Sequence record: OL656110.1
Length of the DNA stretch: 64,000 bases
DNA from: Escherichia phage vB_EcoM-RPN242
Reading direction: 5' to 3' (one strand)
Shown: piece after piece, positions 33,348-64,000 of the stretch
How the letters are laid out: each line of letters begins with the position of its first letter
Position numbering within the stretch: the first letter of the stretch is position 1
Notes under the pieces: model-generated
What the model was told of the DNA's origin: nothing
The model's input: only the letters and a program-made list of their open reading frames with translations
The model's database searches: none
Made by a program: the position numbers and the translations under genes

Positions 33348-33901
33348 TAGAACTCCAGGGTCAGAGGGGTTTCTGCGGACTTATCGTAATCCGCGCCACC
33401 AGCAGCACGCAGGCGATTGCGATCGTTCTTGCGTTTGTGTGCCAATATGTAAGTCTCAATGTCGATCTCCATATAAGAACACGCAGACGACAGGAAGAAC
33501 ATGAGAGTCTCAACGCAAGGATCGTTCATGAATTGCCCAAGGCGGTACGTAACATTGCGATGCCCTACAACACCCAAAGCAGATGGGGTGAATTCGCGAT
33601 TACTAAGGACTTCAAATTCTTCTTCGATCTCACCTTTGGTGCGGTCCACAAGGATGAAGCACAACATGAAGTGTACCACGTCCACCAGTTCATAAACTGC
33701 GTTCGTATGGTCAAACCCGATGTCGTTGCCATAGACCTTCCAGTCACGGGTGGTTTCATCAAGGAACTCTGCCCACTCACGATAGATGGAGTTGATGACT
33801 GCGTTCTGACTCCATACATTCTTCCACTCTTCCCCAAAGTAGGCCACGTTGGTGGCCTTTTGGAGTTCGAGCAGGCTTTTGATATGTCCTGCTGTGATCA
33901 T
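33347..33901 (-). CDS. all-alpha dimeric dUTPase/dCTPase-family NTP pyrophosphatase (gp56-like), putative
   Basis: 184 aa; conserved acidic/aromatic helix segments typical of dimeric dUTPase family as recalled; ATGA-coupled upstream of dNMP kinase. Confidence 0.5.
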   Translation of the reverse strand: MITAGHIKSLLELQKATNVAYFGEEWKNVWSQNAVINSIYREWAEFLDETTRDWKVYGNDIGFDHTNAVYELVDVVHFMLCFILVDRTKGEIEEEFEVLSNREFTPSALGVVGHRNVTYRLGQFMNDPCVETLMFFLSSACSYMEIDIETYILAHKRKNDRNRLRAAGGADYDKSAETPLTLEF

Positions 33902-61357: not shown

Positions 61358-61996
61358 TTACGGCGTCGGATTCACAACCGGAATGTGGGATCGAATACCT
61401 GCGATGATGTCCTTCAGCTGAGGCTTCCATCCATCCACCAAACGGGGTAGAGCGATAGCACCAGGCTGAACTAAAATGATGTCGCTGCCTGTGATATTGT
61501 GCTGAGGGAACTGGGCAAGGTACTGCTCCATGGTGACACCCTCATCAATCAGAACCGCACCGACGTCAGACGATGCGTAGGTTGCACCCAGACCGTCAAC
61601 ACCCCACGCCAAAATACCCCAGTCAGGGATGTTGGCTTCAGATGTGATAGTGAATCCAAACACGGTGTTCAGTGATGTAAAGGAGTAGACATCGTGGGTG
61701 ATGTCATACACCAGATACCCCTTGGTCAGCATATCGGCAAAGATCGCGTCCGTATCGCCAGCAGTCGGAGTCGGTACAGTAAACAACAGCTCGCCATCAG
61801 GAGGAGCAGGGTATGTGCTGAGGGCATAGAGGCACCATGCGTCAATACACTTCTTGATAAATGCCTCCGGTGCGACATAATCAGCAAGGCGAACCGTACC
61901 TGAGTACTCGGATACGATGATGCCTTCCTTCGCACCCTGTAGAGCAATGAAGACCAAGATATGTTCATATCCGGCCTGAGATGGAGTGATGTTCAT
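61358..61996 (-). CDS. hypothetical protein
   Basis: ATG 61996 (aa 33 of track ORF) overlapping upstream stop by 1 nt. Confidence 0.45.
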   Translation of the reverse strand: MNITPSQAGYEHILVFIALQGAKEGIIVSEYSGTVRLADYVAPEAFIKKCIDAWCLYALSTYPAPPDGELLFTVPTPTAGDTDAIFADMLTKGYLVYDITHDVYSFTSLNTVFGFTITSEANIPDWGILAWGVDGLGATYASSDVGAVLIDEGVTMEQYLAQFPQHNITGSDIILVQPGAIALPRLVDGWKPQLKDIIAGIRSHIPVVNPTP

Positions 61997-62610
61997 TATC
62001 TTGTCCTCTTCAGTTTCTCTATTGTGTGCTTGTTCATGGTGATCACCTGAGGATCTACCTCGGAGATGGTCCGGCCTTCGAAGGACACACATTTCTGAAG
62101 ATATTTAGCTTTCTTCACGACGTCGGCAGCATAAGCGTTCGATGCAGGATTACGGGCGAAGCCAGCATTGTAAGAGGAGAGGGATTTGCGGATATTCTGA
62201 TTGTGATAGGTCAGCCAGAACTGCATCTCATCGAGGGCGGCTTGCGCGGCATATTCTTGGTCGGTCAGCAACTTTATAGCGACATTGGCATAGCACTTGC
62301 GATTCTTACAACCTTCGCGATCACCAACTGTCTTCACCTTGTTCTGAAAGGCTCCCATGTTGGCCGCCTTGAGGTCGTATCGCATTGACACTACATCTTC
62401 ACCAGCGCGGCTCTCTCGCCAAGATATGGCGGCCAGAGTGTAGCCAAGATCTTGTGTCTTGCCTACGTGATAGGCGGTTGCCAGCGTATTAAGTTGTTGC
62501 TCGGAGAAATTATAATCGCATTGGGTGGTACTTTGGGAAGCGTGCACATTCCCGCTGGCAATGGTAAAGGTCACGGACAAGGCCATGGCCTTCAACGTTG
62601 TCATCGTCAT
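61996..62610 (-). CDS. secreted lytic transglycosylase-like (SLT) protein with signal peptide
   Basis: signal-peptide-like N-terminus MTMTTLKAMALSVTFTIASGNVHA; SLT-like motifs ISWRESRAG, MGAFQ, SYNAGFA; SD AAGGAA. Confidence 0.55.
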   Translation of the reverse strand: MTMTTLKAMALSVTFTIASGNVHASQSTTQCDYNFSEQQLNTLATAYHVGKTQDLGYTLAAISWRESRAGEDVVSMRYDLKAANMGAFQNKVKTVGDREGCKNRKCYANVAIKLLTDQEYAAQAALDEMQFWLTYHNQNIRKSLSSYNAGFARNPASNAYAADVVKKAKYLQKCVSFEGRTISEVDPQVITMNKHTIEKLKRTR

Positions 62611-62667: not shown

Positions 62668-62702
62668 TAAAAGATAAAGGGCACGTGGTATTTAGTGCCC
62701 TT
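62668..62702 (-). terminator. rho-independent terminator
   Basis: 8-bp stem AAGGGCAC/GTGCCCTT with 10-nt loop, followed on minus strand by TTATCTTTT. Confidence 0.55.
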
Positions 62703-62707
62703 CAGCC

Positions 62708-62992
62708 TCATTCGTAGATGAGGTGGTAGGATTCCTCGATACACTCCAGCCAGCCGTAGACGAACTGTAGAGGGTCATCCCATGCCGTCTTGGTCGCGAC
62801 GGTAAAGTTGCCGTCCAGGATCTGCATATCTTGGTACTTGTTGAAAGCGAGTACAGCATCAACCACAATCAGGCCGCCCTGCTCAAGATAACGATTCGGA
62901 GTGACGGTCACTTGGTAATGAGGATTCCTGCGATTCCATATCTCCACAGCAATGTCACAGGATTCCTGAATTTCATCTTTGTTTTCTGACAT
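62708..62992 (-). CDS. hypothetical protein
   Basis: 94-aa ORF. Confidence 0.4.
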   Translation of the reverse strand: MSENKDEIQESCDIAVEIWNRRNPHYQVTVTPNRYLEQGGLIVVDAVLAFNKYQDMQILDGNFTVATKTAWDDPLQFVYGWLECIEESYHLIYE

Positions 62993-63302
62993 ACGTTTGT
63001 CTCAGATGTTCGGTAAAGGATTTACCCAGCTTGCGGAATAGTTTAATACGACCAATGACTTTGACGTAAACATCTCCGTGGCAGGGGCGCGGCTTACACC
63101 AGCACCCCAATACCTTCCCGTCAAGATCAAGGAGTTCATCCTCAGTGATATCCCCTTTAATCAGGCGCACATACAGGTCGTCCTCAAACAGTTCGATACA
63201 GACGCCTCGTCCATGGTCTTTGACCTCAAACGGGTTCCCCCATTTACCAGGCCGACCAATGTAGACGTCATATGGCTCCTTCTTGAAGTGGACGACTTTC
63301 AT
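62973..63302 (-). CDS. hypothetical Cys/His-motif protein (DUF4326-like by recollection)
   Basis: YDVYIGRPGKWGNPF ... LGCWCKPRPCHGDVYV pattern. Confidence 0.4.
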   Translation of the reverse strand: MKVVHFKKEPYDVYIGRPGKWGNPFEVKDHGRGVCIELFEDDLYVRLIKGDITEDELLDLDGKVLGCWCKPRPCHGDVYVKVIGRIKLFRKLGKSFTEHLRQTYVRKQR

Positions 63303-63463
63303 TTCAGGATTTGACCTGCAAGTAGATAACAGAACCAGACAGAGAACCCGAGATACCCCAGTGCTTTCAGGTAGTTTTTCCTTTCGACTTCACGAGAAAA
63401 CGCAACGATGTCAATGATGCATGCAAAGACCAGGATTGCGAGTTTAATTTGTTCGTAGTCCAT
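63299..63463 (-). CDS. small two-TM membrane peptide (54 aa), not in ORF track
   Basis: own translation MDYEQIKLAILVFACIIDIVAF...; SD AAGGA; ATGA overlap with downstream gene. Confidence 0.3.
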   Translation of the reverse strand: MDYEQIKLAILVFACIIDIVAFSREVERKNYLKALGYLGFSVWFCYLLAGQILK

Positions 63464-63465
63464 GA

Positions 63466-64000
63466 TCAATCCTTCTTGATAACTTCAGTCAGGCCGTTTC
63501 GCAGGCCGTAGCGAATGTTGTGTTGGAAGTATTCCTGGAACTCCTGTTCGCGCTGGCTAATAACAAACAGGTTGTTCCCGCCGAACTTATGCTTCAACAT
63601 CTCAACAGATTCCTGCACCCCGCGCTCGCTCATGTTCTCAAGGATCTCGTCCAGCACGAACAGGTTACATTGTACAGACGCCTTGAGGTTAGCCACATCG
63701 CGCAGAGCTAATGTTACAGCCAGGTTCAGACGACTGCGCTGGCCAGTAGACAGGGAGAAGATACTCTGTCCTTTGCGACCTGCTGCGCTCATGGTGATCT
63801 CAAAGGTATCGTCAACAACGATGTCCAAGAACATGTTGAGGGCTTCAAGATACTCGTTGATCTTGCTATTGAGGAATGGCAAGTACAGGGCGATGATACG
63901 CGCCTTGGTCTGGTCATCCTTCAAGAAGAACAGCAGGTGCTGTAAGTCCTGGAGTTCCTCATCTGCATCTTCACGGAGTTCATACAGAGCCTCCAGTTCA
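63466..64000 (-). CDS. SbcC/Rad50-like ABC ATPase (gp46-like), C-terminal part; 5' end beyond window
   Basis: ABC signature LSTGQRSRLNLAVTLAL and Walker B LFVLDE; reading frame appears to stay open to the window edge. Confidence 0.55.
   Translation of the reverse strand, partial: ELEALYELREDADEELQDLQHLLFFLKDDQTKARIIALYLPFLNSKINEYLEALNMFLDIVVDDTFEITMSAAGRKGQSIFSLSTGQRSRLNLAVTLALRDVANLKASVQCNLFVLDEILENMSERGVQESVEMLKHKFGGNNLFVISQREQEFQEYFQHNIRYGLRNGLTEVIKKD

What the first reader, a model, noticed from the sequence alone, without database searches (positions are those of the whole stretch)
62973..64000. gp46-like ATPase fragment followed by small membrane peptide and Cys/His-motif protein at window edge
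The C-terminal ABC-ATPase segment (LSTGQ signature, Walker B) is followed not by an Mre11-like gp47 but by a 54-aa two-TM peptide and a protein with the pattern YDVYIGRP...WGNPF...CWC.P..CHGD, which I recall as DUF4326-like. The ATGA coupling between the peptide and the Cys/His protein suggests a functional pair of unknown role.
Basis: partly seen in the sequence, partly recalled or inferred. Interest (0 to 1): 0.4.

Follow-up and report, generated by a model that had tools for sequence, protein, structure and literature searches.

The report
Ordinary phage operon tail, DUF4326 gene
The last kilobase of the window is the ordinary, already catalogued end of the gp47-gp46 recombination-nuclease operon of a Vi1-like (Ackermannviridae) phage, where a swappable small membrane-peptide gene sits in front of a widespread but biochemically uncharacterised T4 NrdA.1-type (DUF4326) gene.

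Summary
On the minus strand lie the C-terminal 177 codons of a gp46/SbcC/Rad50-like ATPase, a 54-aa two-TM peptide, and a 109-aa DUF4326 protein (Pfam E=2.7e-23) whose ATG overlaps the peptide's stop (ATGA).

The window is 97-99% identical to sequenced Ackermannviridae phages. In them the Mre11/SbcD-like gp47 lies upstream of gp46, as I recall for T4, so its absence downstream is not an anomaly.

The Cys/His protein is a homologue of T4 NrdA.1. That family occurs in 2188 of 50,697 phage records.

The "functional pair" idea is not supported:
- The slot between gp46 and DUF4326 is a recombination cassette. In different relatives it holds this peptide, at least four other two-TM peptides with no detectable similarity, a DUF7175 protein, a phrog_4165 protein, or nothing.
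- No small two-TM ORF precedes DUF4326 in any of about 52 phage loci outside the family.
- DUF4326 lacks its own Shine-Dalgarno sequence, so it is probably translationally coupled to whatever ORF lies upstream.

DUF4326 is most likely a small, dispensable Cys/His enzyme. It shows weak DUF488 similarity and fusions to SLOG and Macro domains. Low interest; already known.

The parts
63466..64000 (-). 3' end (177 codons plus TGA stop) of the gp46 / SbcC / Rad50-like recombination ATPase gene. It holds the ABC signature LSTGQ (63739-63753), Walker B LFVLDE (63646-63663), and Gln at the H-loop position (63553-63555). The gene continues beyond the window.
   Evidence: complete orthologue in AV101
63299..63463 (-). 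54-aa two-TM hairpin membrane peptide (phrog_34593). It occupies a variable cassette slot between gp46 and DUF4326 and has its own AAGGA Shine-Dalgarno sequence.
63299..63302 (-). ATGA stop/start overlap between the peptide's TGA and the DUF4326 ATG. This is the likely site of termination-reinitiation coupling.
   Evidence: the same overlap occurs with other upstream ORFs
62973..63302 (-). 109-aa DUF4326 protein, a T4 NrdA.1 homologue. C67, C69, C74 and H75 are invariant; D12, R17, W21-G22-N23-P24 and R32 are at least 90% conserved. A clade-specific basic C-terminal helix spans about residues 85-109.
62708..62992 (-). 94-aa ORF (phrog_4165, function unknown) overlapping the DUF4326 3' end by 20 nt. 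It is always adjacent to DUF4326 in this phage family, on either side.
62669..62704 (-). Terminator-like 10-bp hairpin followed by UAUCUUUU, directly after the 94-aa ORF. It is the probable end of the gp47-gp46-...-orf94 transcription unit.
   Evidence: dG -24.2 kcal/mol, z = -2.46; not picked up by the consensus scan, probably because the loop is 10 nt

Best explanation
The region is the distal part of the conserved gp47-gp46 (Mre11/Rad50-type) recombination-nuclease transcription unit of an Ackermannviridae (Agtrevirus-like) phage.

Organisation. After gp46 comes a recombination-prone accessory slot. Here it holds a lineage-specific 54-aa inner-membrane hairpin peptide. Next come a T4 NrdA.1-type DUF4326 protein, a phrog_4165 protein and a terminator-like hairpin.

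Translation. DUF4326 has no Shine-Dalgarno sequence of its own. It is probably translated by termination-reinitiation from whichever ORF precedes it. This explains the ATGA overlap without any functional partnership (inferred).

DUF4326. It is most likely a small, non-essential enzyme. Its active site would be built by the strand-loop-helix element C67-W-C69-K-P-R-P-C74-H75 and the GRPxKWGNPF loop. [quoted passage not shown] It probably removes or transfers a phosphate attached to ribose in NAD+/ADP-ribose-derived nucleotides or at nucleic-acid ends, which would serve counter-defence or nucleic-acid/nucleotide repair (inferred, not shown).

The peptide. It is an independent accessory membrane protein of unknown target (inferred).
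For: Identity and synteny:
- The window region is 97-98.6% identical to the Escherichia phages YX22, LHE287 and AV101.
- The gene order gp55-gp47-gp46-slot-DUF4326 is seen in AV101 and SilasIsHot. It also holds in metagenomic relatives whose DUF4326 is only 53-59% identical.
- gp47 matches phrog_100, SbcD-like (E=1.3e-106), and gp46 matches phrog_77 (E=2.4e-162).

Cassette slot:
- Its content differs among relatives. Window-type peptide: window, AV101, SilasIsHot, L012. Four other two-TM peptides of 51-57 aa: L013/14/17, L018/19, KN2-1, L037. DUF7175: PM10, L015/16. DUF7175 plus peptide: Ds25CZ. phrog_4165: L007, L008, L024-26. Nothing: L020/21.
- Three of these other peptide types were tested against the window type and against each other and show no detectable similarity. 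The L037 type was judged unrelated by eye only.
- The DNA alignment shows sharp boundaries exactly at the gp46 stop and the DUF4326 ATG.
- Codon differences show a separate history for the cassette. Against SilasIsHot the peptide differs in 7 of 54 codons, DUF4326 in 38 of 109 and gp46C in 85 of 177. Against Ds25CZ the peptide differs in 43 of 54 codons, DUF4326 in 27 of 109.
- The peptide family has only 5 clusters among 5.8 billion proteins.
- No small two-TM ORF lies upstream of DUF4326 in about 52 non-Ackermannviridae loci.
- DUF4326 has no SD sequence, whereas the peptide has AAGGA.

DUF4326:
- Pfam E=2.7e-23. T4/T2 NrdA.1 is 41% identical and is itself DUF4326.
- 24,118 cluster representatives match at E<=1e-3.
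- C67, C69, C74 and H75 are invariant in 116 representatives.
- The AF2 model has pLDDT 95.6, with the Cys/His motif between strand 64-67 and helix 75-91.
- 19 of 116 members give weak hits to Pfam DUF488-N3a (best E=0.0085). No other family recurs in more than 2 members.
- Fusions to YAcAr and DprA SLOG domains, Macro and RNase H are found here. DUF2493 and NADAR+PTP fusions appear in BFVD.
- The published prediction is a rhodanese-phosphatase clade that processes terminal phosphates on ribose of ADPr derivatives (PMC9503650; PMC7824862).

Dispensability: the gene is frameshifted in AV101, 5'-deleted in L022 and internally deleted in L037.
Against: No biochemical activity of any DUF4326 or DUF488 protein turned up in the literature held.

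Foldseek against the PDB gave no match better than E=4 despite the confident model, and RapZ structures (which, from memory, exist in the PDB) did not appear. PDB sequence and profile searches were empty.

hhalign against YeaO-type DUF488 and RapZ gave no signal. The superfamily link therefore rests on sub-threshold Pfam hits and on published analysis.

The invariant C3H set could instead be a structural zinc site.

Immediate neighbours of stand-alone DUF4326 in 52 diverse phage loci are replication and recombination genes, not NAD/ADPr genes.

Transcription-unit boundaries and translational coupling are inferred from sequence only.
Confidence: 0.7

Rival explanations
1. The peptide and DUF4326 are a dedicated functional pair. 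For example, the two-TM hairpin could tether or regulate DUF4326 at the inner membrane, with the ATGA overlap ensuring stoichiometric co-expression.
For: A 51-57-aa two-TM hairpin ORF ends in the DUF4326 start codon in several Ackermannviridae lineages, even though the peptide sequences are not detectably related. The Ackermannviridae DUF4326 has an extra basic C-terminal helix.
Against: - Relatives with intact DUF4326 lack any peptide: PM10 has DUF7175, L020/21 have nothing, and L007, L008 and L024-26 have phrog_4165.
- The C-terminal helix is also present in those peptide-less lineages (P0012 and P0014).
- None of about 52 other phage loci has such a peptide. T4 instead has NrdA.2/DUF5496 upstream.
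- The peptide cassette has a different evolutionary history from its flanks.
- ATGA overlaps are common in this genome, at 9 of 73 gene pairs.
Confidence: 0.07
2. DUF4326 in this phage family works with the gp47/gp46 Mre11-Rad50 nuclease as a DNA-end-processing enzyme. For example, it could remove a blocking 3'-phosphate or an ADP-ribosyl/ribose-phosphate adduct from DNA ends before resection.
For: - DUF4326 stays in the gp47-gp46 unit across the whole family, down to 53% identity.
- An SbcC-like protein (phrog_77) is an immediate neighbour in 2 of 52 loci outside the family. The other annotated neighbours are polymerases, exonucleases, helicases, primases and a clamp.
- Fusions to RNase H, DprA-type and DnaA_C domains occur.
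- From memory, Burroughs and Aravind 2023 (NAR Genom Bioinform lqad029, not held in the library) predicted DNA-end processing for some members of this clade.
Against: - In T4/T2 the homologue sits next to nrdA, far from genes 46/47.
- In most loci there is no SbcCD neighbour.
- Early-region gene adjacency in phages is weak functional evidence.
- The gene is lost in three isolates that keep gp46.
Confidence: 0.18
3. DUF4326 is not an enzyme but a small zinc-binding (Cys3-His) nucleic-acid- or protein-binding module with a regulatory role.
For: C67, C69, C74 and H75 are the only strictly invariant residues in 116 representatives. The domain is about 80 residues with no PDB fold match. A basic C-terminal helix is present in this clade.
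Against: Many other polar or aromatic positions are at least 90% conserved (D12, R17, W21, N23, R32), which is typical of a substrate pocket. There are recurrent weak hits to the 'active' DUF488-N3a subclade. Repeated fusions to ligand-processing SLOG, Macro and NADAR domains occur (PMC9503650). C74 and H75 are adjacent, an unusual pair of ligands for one metal (inference).
Confidence: 0.15
4. The 54-aa ORF is not a gene, only a spacer that happens to be open.
For: It is very short, has no homologues outside close relatives, and shows a high ratio of nonsynonymous to synonymous differences among close relatives (3:4).
Against: - It has an ATG with a well-placed AAGGA SD sequence.
- The Ds25CZ orthologue is exactly 54 aa with the same topology although 80% of its codons differ.
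- It has a PHROG family.
- Positional analogues have the same size and two-TM topology in other genera.
- The stop is embedded in the next gene's start.
Confidence: 0.05

Closest known systems
Phage T4/T2 NrdA.1 (Pfam PF14216, DUF4326; phrog_464)
   Same: Same domain: 41% identity over 78% of the protein. T2 NrdA.1 hits DUF4326 at E=1.8e-21. Both are stand-alone proteins of about 100 aa in a phage gene cluster and overlap their neighbours.
   Different: In T4/T2 it lies directly upstream of nrdA and after NrdA.2/DUF5496. Here it lies after gp46 and a membrane peptide. The homologous region of LHE287 annotates nrdB about 13-14 kb from this locus. The Ackermannviridae version carries an extra basic C-terminal helix of about 25 aa.
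T4 gp46/gp47 (Rad50/Mre11; bacterial SbcCD) recombination nuclease
   Same: ABC signature and Walker B are present in the window fragment. The full orthologue has Walker A, a coiled coil and a CPTC hook. An SbcD-like partner lies immediately upstream, the same order as I recall for T4 genes 47-46.
   Different: Only the last 177 of about 778 residues are in the window. The H-loop histidine position is Gln (FVISQ), aligned to the ITH/VSH of SMC and Rad50 structures.
[quoted passage not shown] 2022, PMC9503650)
   Same: 19 of 116 DUF4326 representatives give weak hits to Pfam DUF488-N3a. The conserved Cys/His element lies in a strand-loop-helix, as in Cys-phosphatase P-loops. Fusions to SLOG and Macro domains are reproduced here.
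   Different: No significant profile-profile or fold match to YeaO, RapZ or any PDB phosphatase or rhodanese. The motif is CxCxPxxCH, not CX5R. No activity has been shown for either family.
Variable accessory-gene slots of T4-like and other large lytic phages (from my own knowledge, as I recall described as hyperplastic regions), rich in small membrane ORFs
   Same: Conserved flanking core genes with sharp boundaries. Alternative unrelated small ORFs at one position. Evidence of horizontal exchange.
   Different: The slot is a single gene position inside an operon. In most variants it holds a two-TM hairpin of very similar size whose stop is fused to the next gene's start.

Membership tests
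Pfam PF14216 DUF4326 (T4 NrdA.1 family) | Score above the Pfam gathering threshold over the full domain | tested here: met
   82.9 bits against a cutoff of 25, E=2.7e-23, profile positions 3-80 of 82; phrog_464 E=1.1e-45
Pfam PF14216 DUF4326 (T4 NrdA.1 family) | Family-invariant residues: R in GRP, WGNP, and the C-x-C-x-P-x-x-C-H motif | tested here: met
   R17, W21-G22-N23-P24, C67, C69, P71, C74 and H75 are all present in the window protein. They are invariant or at least 90% conserved in 38, 33 and 116 homologues.
Pfam PF14216 DUF4326 (T4 NrdA.1 family) | Detectable homology to the name-giving T4/T2 NrdA.1 protein | tested here: met
   tblastn gives 41% identity and E about 4e-13 to T2 and T4 nrdA.1. 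T2 NrdA.1 is itself DUF4326.
Rhodanese-phosphatase superfamily (RapZ-C/DUF488/DUF4326 clade) | Significant sequence-profile relationship to DUF488 | tested here: inconclusive
   19 of 116 members hit PF22751 DUF488-N3a, but only at E>=0.0085. hhalign against YeaO-type profiles gave probability below 1%.
Rhodanese-phosphatase superfamily (RapZ-C/DUF488/DUF4326 clade) | Structural similarity to a solved rhodanese, PTP or RapZ-C fold | tested here: not met
Rhodanese-phosphatase superfamily (RapZ-C/DUF488/DUF4326 clade) | Catalytic Cys in a strand-loop-helix phosphate-binding loop with phosphoesterase or transferase activity | not testable with these tools
   The position of C67/C69 at the end of strand 64-67 and of H75 at the helix N-terminus is consistent. 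Activity needs an enzyme assay.
SbcC / Rad50 / T4 gp46 ATPase | C-terminal ABC half: signature motif, Walker B, D-loop | tested here: met
   LSTGQ and LFVLDE are present; phrog_77 E=5.3e-53; the fragment aligns to Rad50/SMC heads
SbcC / Rad50 / T4 gp46 ATPase | N-terminal Walker A, long coiled coil and CxxC zinc hook | tested here: met
   These lie outside the window. In the AV101 orthologue (97.7% identical over the shared part) the sequence shows GAGKST and CPTC, and it hits Pfam SMC_N and AAA_23.
SbcC / Rad50 / T4 gp46 ATPase | Adjacent Mre11/SbcD-type nuclease partner | tested here: met
   A 371-aa ORF immediately upstream in AV101 and SilasIsHot matches phrog_100, SbcD-like, at E=1.3e-106. 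Pfam itself gave no hit at E<=0.01.
SbcC / Rad50 / T4 gp46 ATPase | H-loop histidine | tested here: not met
   Gln149 of the fragment (FVISQ) aligns with the His of SMC (ITH) and Rad50 (VSH). It is conserved as Q in all the Ackermannviridae orthologues I examined.

The most novel reading that the evidence does not exclude
In Ackermannviridae the DUF4326 enzyme is a dedicated accessory of the gp47/gp46 Mre11-Rad50 machine. It would clean phosphate- or ADP-ribose-derived blocks from DNA ends, for example damage left by host defence enzymes. The fast-swapping two-TM peptide translated just before it would be a separate arms-race module riding in the same operon.
Probability: 0.15. Interest if true: 0.55.

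Novelty: already known. Interest (0 to 1): 0.17.

Why it matters
The gene order is the normal one for a well-sequenced phage family, and every ORF already belongs to a Pfam or PHROG family.

The residual value is twofold. First, DUF4326 is very widespread: 2188 of 50,697 phage records and 24,118 representative clusters at 50% identity. It still has no known activity, so any assay on this small, confidently modelled protein would annotate thousands of genes. Second, the single-gene slot in front of it is a clean natural example of cassette exchange. It holds at least five different two-TM peptides, and where tested they show no detectable similarity. It could be used to look for membrane-targeted host-takeover or exclusion functions.

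Tried and rejected
- PDB sequence search with the DUF4326 protein gave only chance hits to RNA polymerase subunit RPABC5 at E about 0.6. The profile search found nothing.
- Foldseek of the DUF4326 model against the PDB gave nothing below E=4.
- hhalign of DUF4326 alignments against E. coli YeaO (DUF488) and RapZ gave no signal. It also failed against a YeaO-family alignment, because the homologue search returned only sequences at least 70% identical (Neff 2.1).
- NCBIfam had no model for DUF4326, the peptide, orf94 or DUF7175.
- Literature: 'PF14216' returned 0 papers and 'NrdA.1' only 2 genome notes. 'DUF488' returned nothing that appeared functional. Burroughs and Aravind 2023 is not held. 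No Ackermannviridae transcriptomics were found.
The single-sequence AF2 model reached only pLDDT 64, and its Foldseek matches were meaningless.
- The consensus promoter/terminator scan gave nothing specific around the three genes. Promoter-like sites were at the chance level.
- Rfam and tRNA scans of the whole window were empty.
- Rejected: the weak Pox_A14 hit for the peptide (E=0.055) and the weak SSB hit for orf94 (E=0.05), as chance.
- Rejected: the GenBank product names 'ribonucleotide reductase NrdA-like', 'RegB' and 'cell division trigger factor'. I take them to be name-propagation errors.
Full report
**What is in the sequence.** All genes at the window's right end run on the minus strand.

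- An ORF enters from beyond position 64000 and stops at 63468-63466 (TGA). Its 177 visible residues carry the ABC signature LSTGQ (63739-63753), the Walker B motif LFVLDE (63646-63663) and a D-loop region.
- This ORF matches phrog_77, 'SbcC-like subunit', at E=5.3e-53. It matches Pfam SMC_N and SbcC_Walker_B weakly and the NCBIfam Rad50 model weakly.
- Two nucleotides after its stop, and 6 nt after an AAGGA Shine-Dalgarno sequence, a 54-codon ORF starts (ATG at 63463). It has two hydrophobic segments separated by a net-positive loop (SREVERKNYLK), the signature of a two-TM hairpin with a cytoplasmic loop.
- Its TGA stop is embedded in the ATG of the next ORF (ATGA at 63302-63299). That ORF encodes 109 residues with YDVYIGRP, WGNPF and CWCKPRPCHGD. 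It hits Pfam DUF4326 at E=2.7e-23, 82.9 bits against a threshold of 25.

**Where it comes from.** The last 1.4 kb of the window is 97-98.6% identical to Escherichia phages YX22, LHE287, AV101 and A221. It is 85-95% identical to many Kuttervirus, Agtrevirus, Limestonevirus and Taipeivirus phages. All are Ackermannviridae, and 253 records match. The rest of the window is collinear with LHE287, including rIIA/B, topoisomerase, ligase, UvsX, a thymidylate-synthase-like gene and baseplate genes.

**The gp47 question.** In AV101 and SilasIsHot the order on the coding strand is gp55 sigma factor, then a 371-aa protein, then gp46 (778 aa), then the peptide, then DUF4326.

- The 371-aa protein matches phrog_100, 'SbcD-like subunit', at E=1.3e-106.
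- The complete gp46 orthologue is 97.7% identical to the window fragment. It hits SMC_N and AAA_23 and shows a Walker A (GAGKST) and a CPTC hook.

So gp47 precedes gp46, as I recall for T4. It simply lies outside the window.

**Is the peptide a partner of DUF4326?** Several tests say no.

1. The slot is variable. The table lists what lies between the gp46 stop and the DUF4326 ATG in different Ackermannviridae.

| Slot content | Where seen |
|---|---|
| Window-type peptide | window, AV101, SilasIsHot, L012 |
| Four other two-TM peptides of 51-57 aa | L013/14/17; L018/19; KN2-1; L037 |
| 102-aa DUF7175 protein | PM10, L015/16 |
| DUF7175 plus a 43%-identical peptide | Ds25CZ |
| phrog_4165 protein | L007, L008, L024-26 |
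| Nothing | L020/21 |

   Three of the other peptide types were compared with the window type and with each other, and alignment scores fell within shuffled controls. The L037 type was judged unrelated by eye.

2. A DNA alignment shows near-identity up to the gp46 stop and from the DUF4326 ATG onward. In between lies an indel or replacement cassette.

3. The cassette has its own history.

| Comparison | Peptide codons differing | DUF4326 codons differing | gp46 C-terminus codons differing |
|---|---|---|---|
| Window vs SilasIsHot | 7 of 54 | 38 of 109 | 85 of 177 |
| Window vs Ds25CZ | 43 of 54 | 27 of 109 | 44 of 177 |

4. The peptide family comprises only five 90%-identity clusters in a 5.8-billion-protein collection, and 37 phage records. 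DUF4326 occurs in 2188 phage records.

5. I examined 52 distinct non-Ackermannviridae viral loci that encode DUF4326. None has a small two-TM ORF ending at its start. T2/T4 have NrdA.2/DUF5496 there.

6. Four-nt overlaps occur at 9 of 73 adjacent gene pairs, and 1-nt overlaps at 7 more, in the homologous 50 kb of LHE287.

7. DUF4326 has no Shine-Dalgarno sequence (upstream CAAATCCTGAA), whereas the peptide has one. In most intact variants with an intervening ORF, that ORF stops in or over the DUF4326 start. I infer that the overlap reflects termination-reinitiation coupling that belongs to the DUF4326 start site, not to a specific partner.

The more deeply conserved neighbour is the 94-aa phrog_4165 ORF (62992->62708, overlapping DUF4326 by 20 nt). 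In the window lineage it follows DUF4326. In the more distant lineages it precedes it. A 10-bp hairpin with a U-rich tail follows orf94 and probably ends the transcription unit (62669-62704, dG -24.2 kcal/mol, z=-2.46).

**What DUF4326 is.**

- *Distribution.* The protein is a homologue of T4/T2 NrdA.1 (41% identity). The family is very large: 24,118 representatives at 50% clustering with E<=1e-3. It is spread over phages, archaeal viruses and giant viruses.
- *Conserved residues.* In 116 diverse representatives only C67, C69, C74 and H75 are invariant. D12, R17, W21-G22-N23-P24 and R32 are at least 90% conserved.
- *Model.* An alignment-based AF2 model is very confident (pLDDT 95.6). It is a compact alpha/beta domain in which the Cys/His motif forms the loop between strand 64-67 and helix 75-91. 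A clade-specific basic C-terminal helix follows.
- *No solved relative.* No solved structure resembles it by Foldseek (best E=4.3) or by sequence or profile.
[quoted passage not shown] They predict that it processes terminal phosphates on ribose in ADP-ribose derivatives (PMC9503650; PMC7824862). From memory, their 2023 paper defines a RapZ-C/DUF488/DUF4326 clade. That paper is not held in the library.
- *Partial reproduction here.* Among 33 long family members I found YAcAr-SLOG (2), DprA-type SLOG, Macro, RNase H and DnaA_C fusions. BFVD shows DUF2493 and NADAR+PTP fusions. 19 of 116 representatives give sub-threshold hits to Pfam DUF488-N3a ('active DUF488-N3 subclade', best E=0.0085), and no other family recurs in more than two members.
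- *Tests that failed.* Direct hhalign tests against YeaO-type DUF488 and RapZ gave no signal. The superfamily link is therefore suggestive, not demonstrated here.
- *Neighbours.* Immediate neighbours of stand-alone DUF4326 in 52 unrelated phage loci are mostly DNA polymerases, exonucleases, SbcC-like proteins (2), helicases, primases, a clamp, dUTPase, PhoH and a methyltransferase. There is no constant partner.
- *Dispensability.* The gene is frameshifted in AV101, 5'-deleted in L022 and internally deleted in L037 / Klebsiella phage May.

**Most likely mechanism.**

- *Shown:* gene identities, order, overlaps, cassette variability, family membership, conserved residues and dispensability.
- *Inferred:* the unit gp47-gp46-slot-DUF4326-orf94 is co-transcribed and ends at the hairpin. 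DUF4326 is translated by reinitiation after the upstream ORF. DUF4326 is a small Cys/His-dependent enzyme acting on a ribose-linked phosphate of an NAD+/ADPr-derived nucleotide or a nucleic-acid end, with a counter-defence or repair role. The peptide is an independent inner-membrane accessory protein whose rapid replacement suggests a host-interaction function of unknown target.
- *Rivals:* a true peptide-DUF4326 pair (0.07); DUF4326 as an end-cleaning accessory of the Mre11-Rad50 nuclease (0.18); DUF4326 as a structural zinc module (0.15); a non-coding peptide ORF (0.05).

**Novelty and verdict.** Every ORF here is 90-100% identical to annotated proteins of sequenced phages and already sits in Pfam or PHROG families. 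The arrangement is the family norm. The apparent anomaly (no gp47 downstream) comes from the window edge and from the expected gene order. The proposed functional pairing is contradicted by comparative data. The finding is ordinary and already known. The only mildly interesting by-products are the cassette slot with several alternative two-TM peptides and the fact that a very widespread, confidently foldable viral domain still lacks an assay.

Noticed in passing
window 63553-63555 (minus strand; Gln149 of the gp46 fragment): The ABC H-loop histidine of Rad50/SMC aligns with a glutamine (FVISQ) in this gp46. The Gln is conserved in all the Ackermannviridae orthologues I read. I did not check whether T4 gp46 shares it or what it means for ATP hydrolysis.
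   Followed up: partly
slot between gp46 and DUF4326: window 63299-63463; L013 2831-3004; L018 2837-3004; L005 1349-1504; L037 2828-3004: At least five different two-TM hairpin peptides of 51-57 aa occupy the same single-gene slot in different Ackermannviridae. Each ends in the DUF4326 start codon. The first four types show no detectable similarity to one another; the L037 type was judged by eye. The KN2-1 peptide is not annotated in GenBank.
   Followed up: partly
L001 9373-9703 (AV101); L022 3001-3273; L037 3001-3232: The DUF4326 gene is inactivated independently in three isolates or contigs: a frameshift in AV101, a 5' deletion that also removes the slot in L022, and an internal deletion in L037. 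The gene is therefore dispensable for propagation.
   Followed up: yes
window 62708-62992; L007 3696-4004; L008 3689-3997; L024 2693-3010; L025 2721-3020: The 94-aa phrog_4165 ORF is always next to DUF4326 but on opposite sides in different lineages: downstream here, upstream in distant relatives. Its function is unknown. The single-sequence AF2 model was poor (pLDDT 64) and gave no fold match.
   Followed up: partly
window 61996-62610 (minus strand): The 204-aa protein (phrog_600) has a signal-peptide-like N-terminus and a weak Pfam SLT lytic-transglycosylase hit (E=3.8e-4). AV101 annotates the orthologue as 'Vs.1'. Several GenBank records label it 'RegB endoribonuclease', which looks like a propagated mis-annotation.
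   Followed up: no
L001 12205-13320 (AV101 orthologue of gp47, outside the window): The SbcD/Mre11-like gp47 orthologue (phrog_100, E=1e-106) is annotated 'cell division trigger factor' in AV101 and gets no Pfam hit at E<=0.01. It is a very divergent Mre11-type sequence with a misleading product name.
   Followed up: partly
window 61358-62092 (minus strand): The mechanical 244-aa ORF overlaps the upstream gene by 97 nt. The DUF7270 match begins at residue 33 (MNITPS...), and AV101 annotates 211 aa. The real start is therefore probably the internal ATG at about 61996.
   Followed up: no
GenBank OR844944.1 (Enterococcus phage Efm 3-10, 38.5 kb), positions 33498-33659: This record, labelled as an Enterococcus phage, carries the Ackermannviridae 54-aa peptide at 94% identity and also matches the window DNA. 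It is probably a mislabelled or contaminated record.
   Followed up: no
window 62973-63302 homologues in GenBank: DUF4326 proteins are often annotated 'ribonucleotide reductase NrdA-like' or 'ribonucleoside-diphosphate reductase subunit'. Examples are phrog_24867, Klebsiella phage May and Felixounavirus-like phages. The name appears to derive from the T4 locus tag nrdA.1, not from any similarity to RNR.
   Followed up: partly
window 1-64000: There are no tRNA genes and no Rfam family matches at gathering thresholds anywhere in the window.
   Followed up: yes
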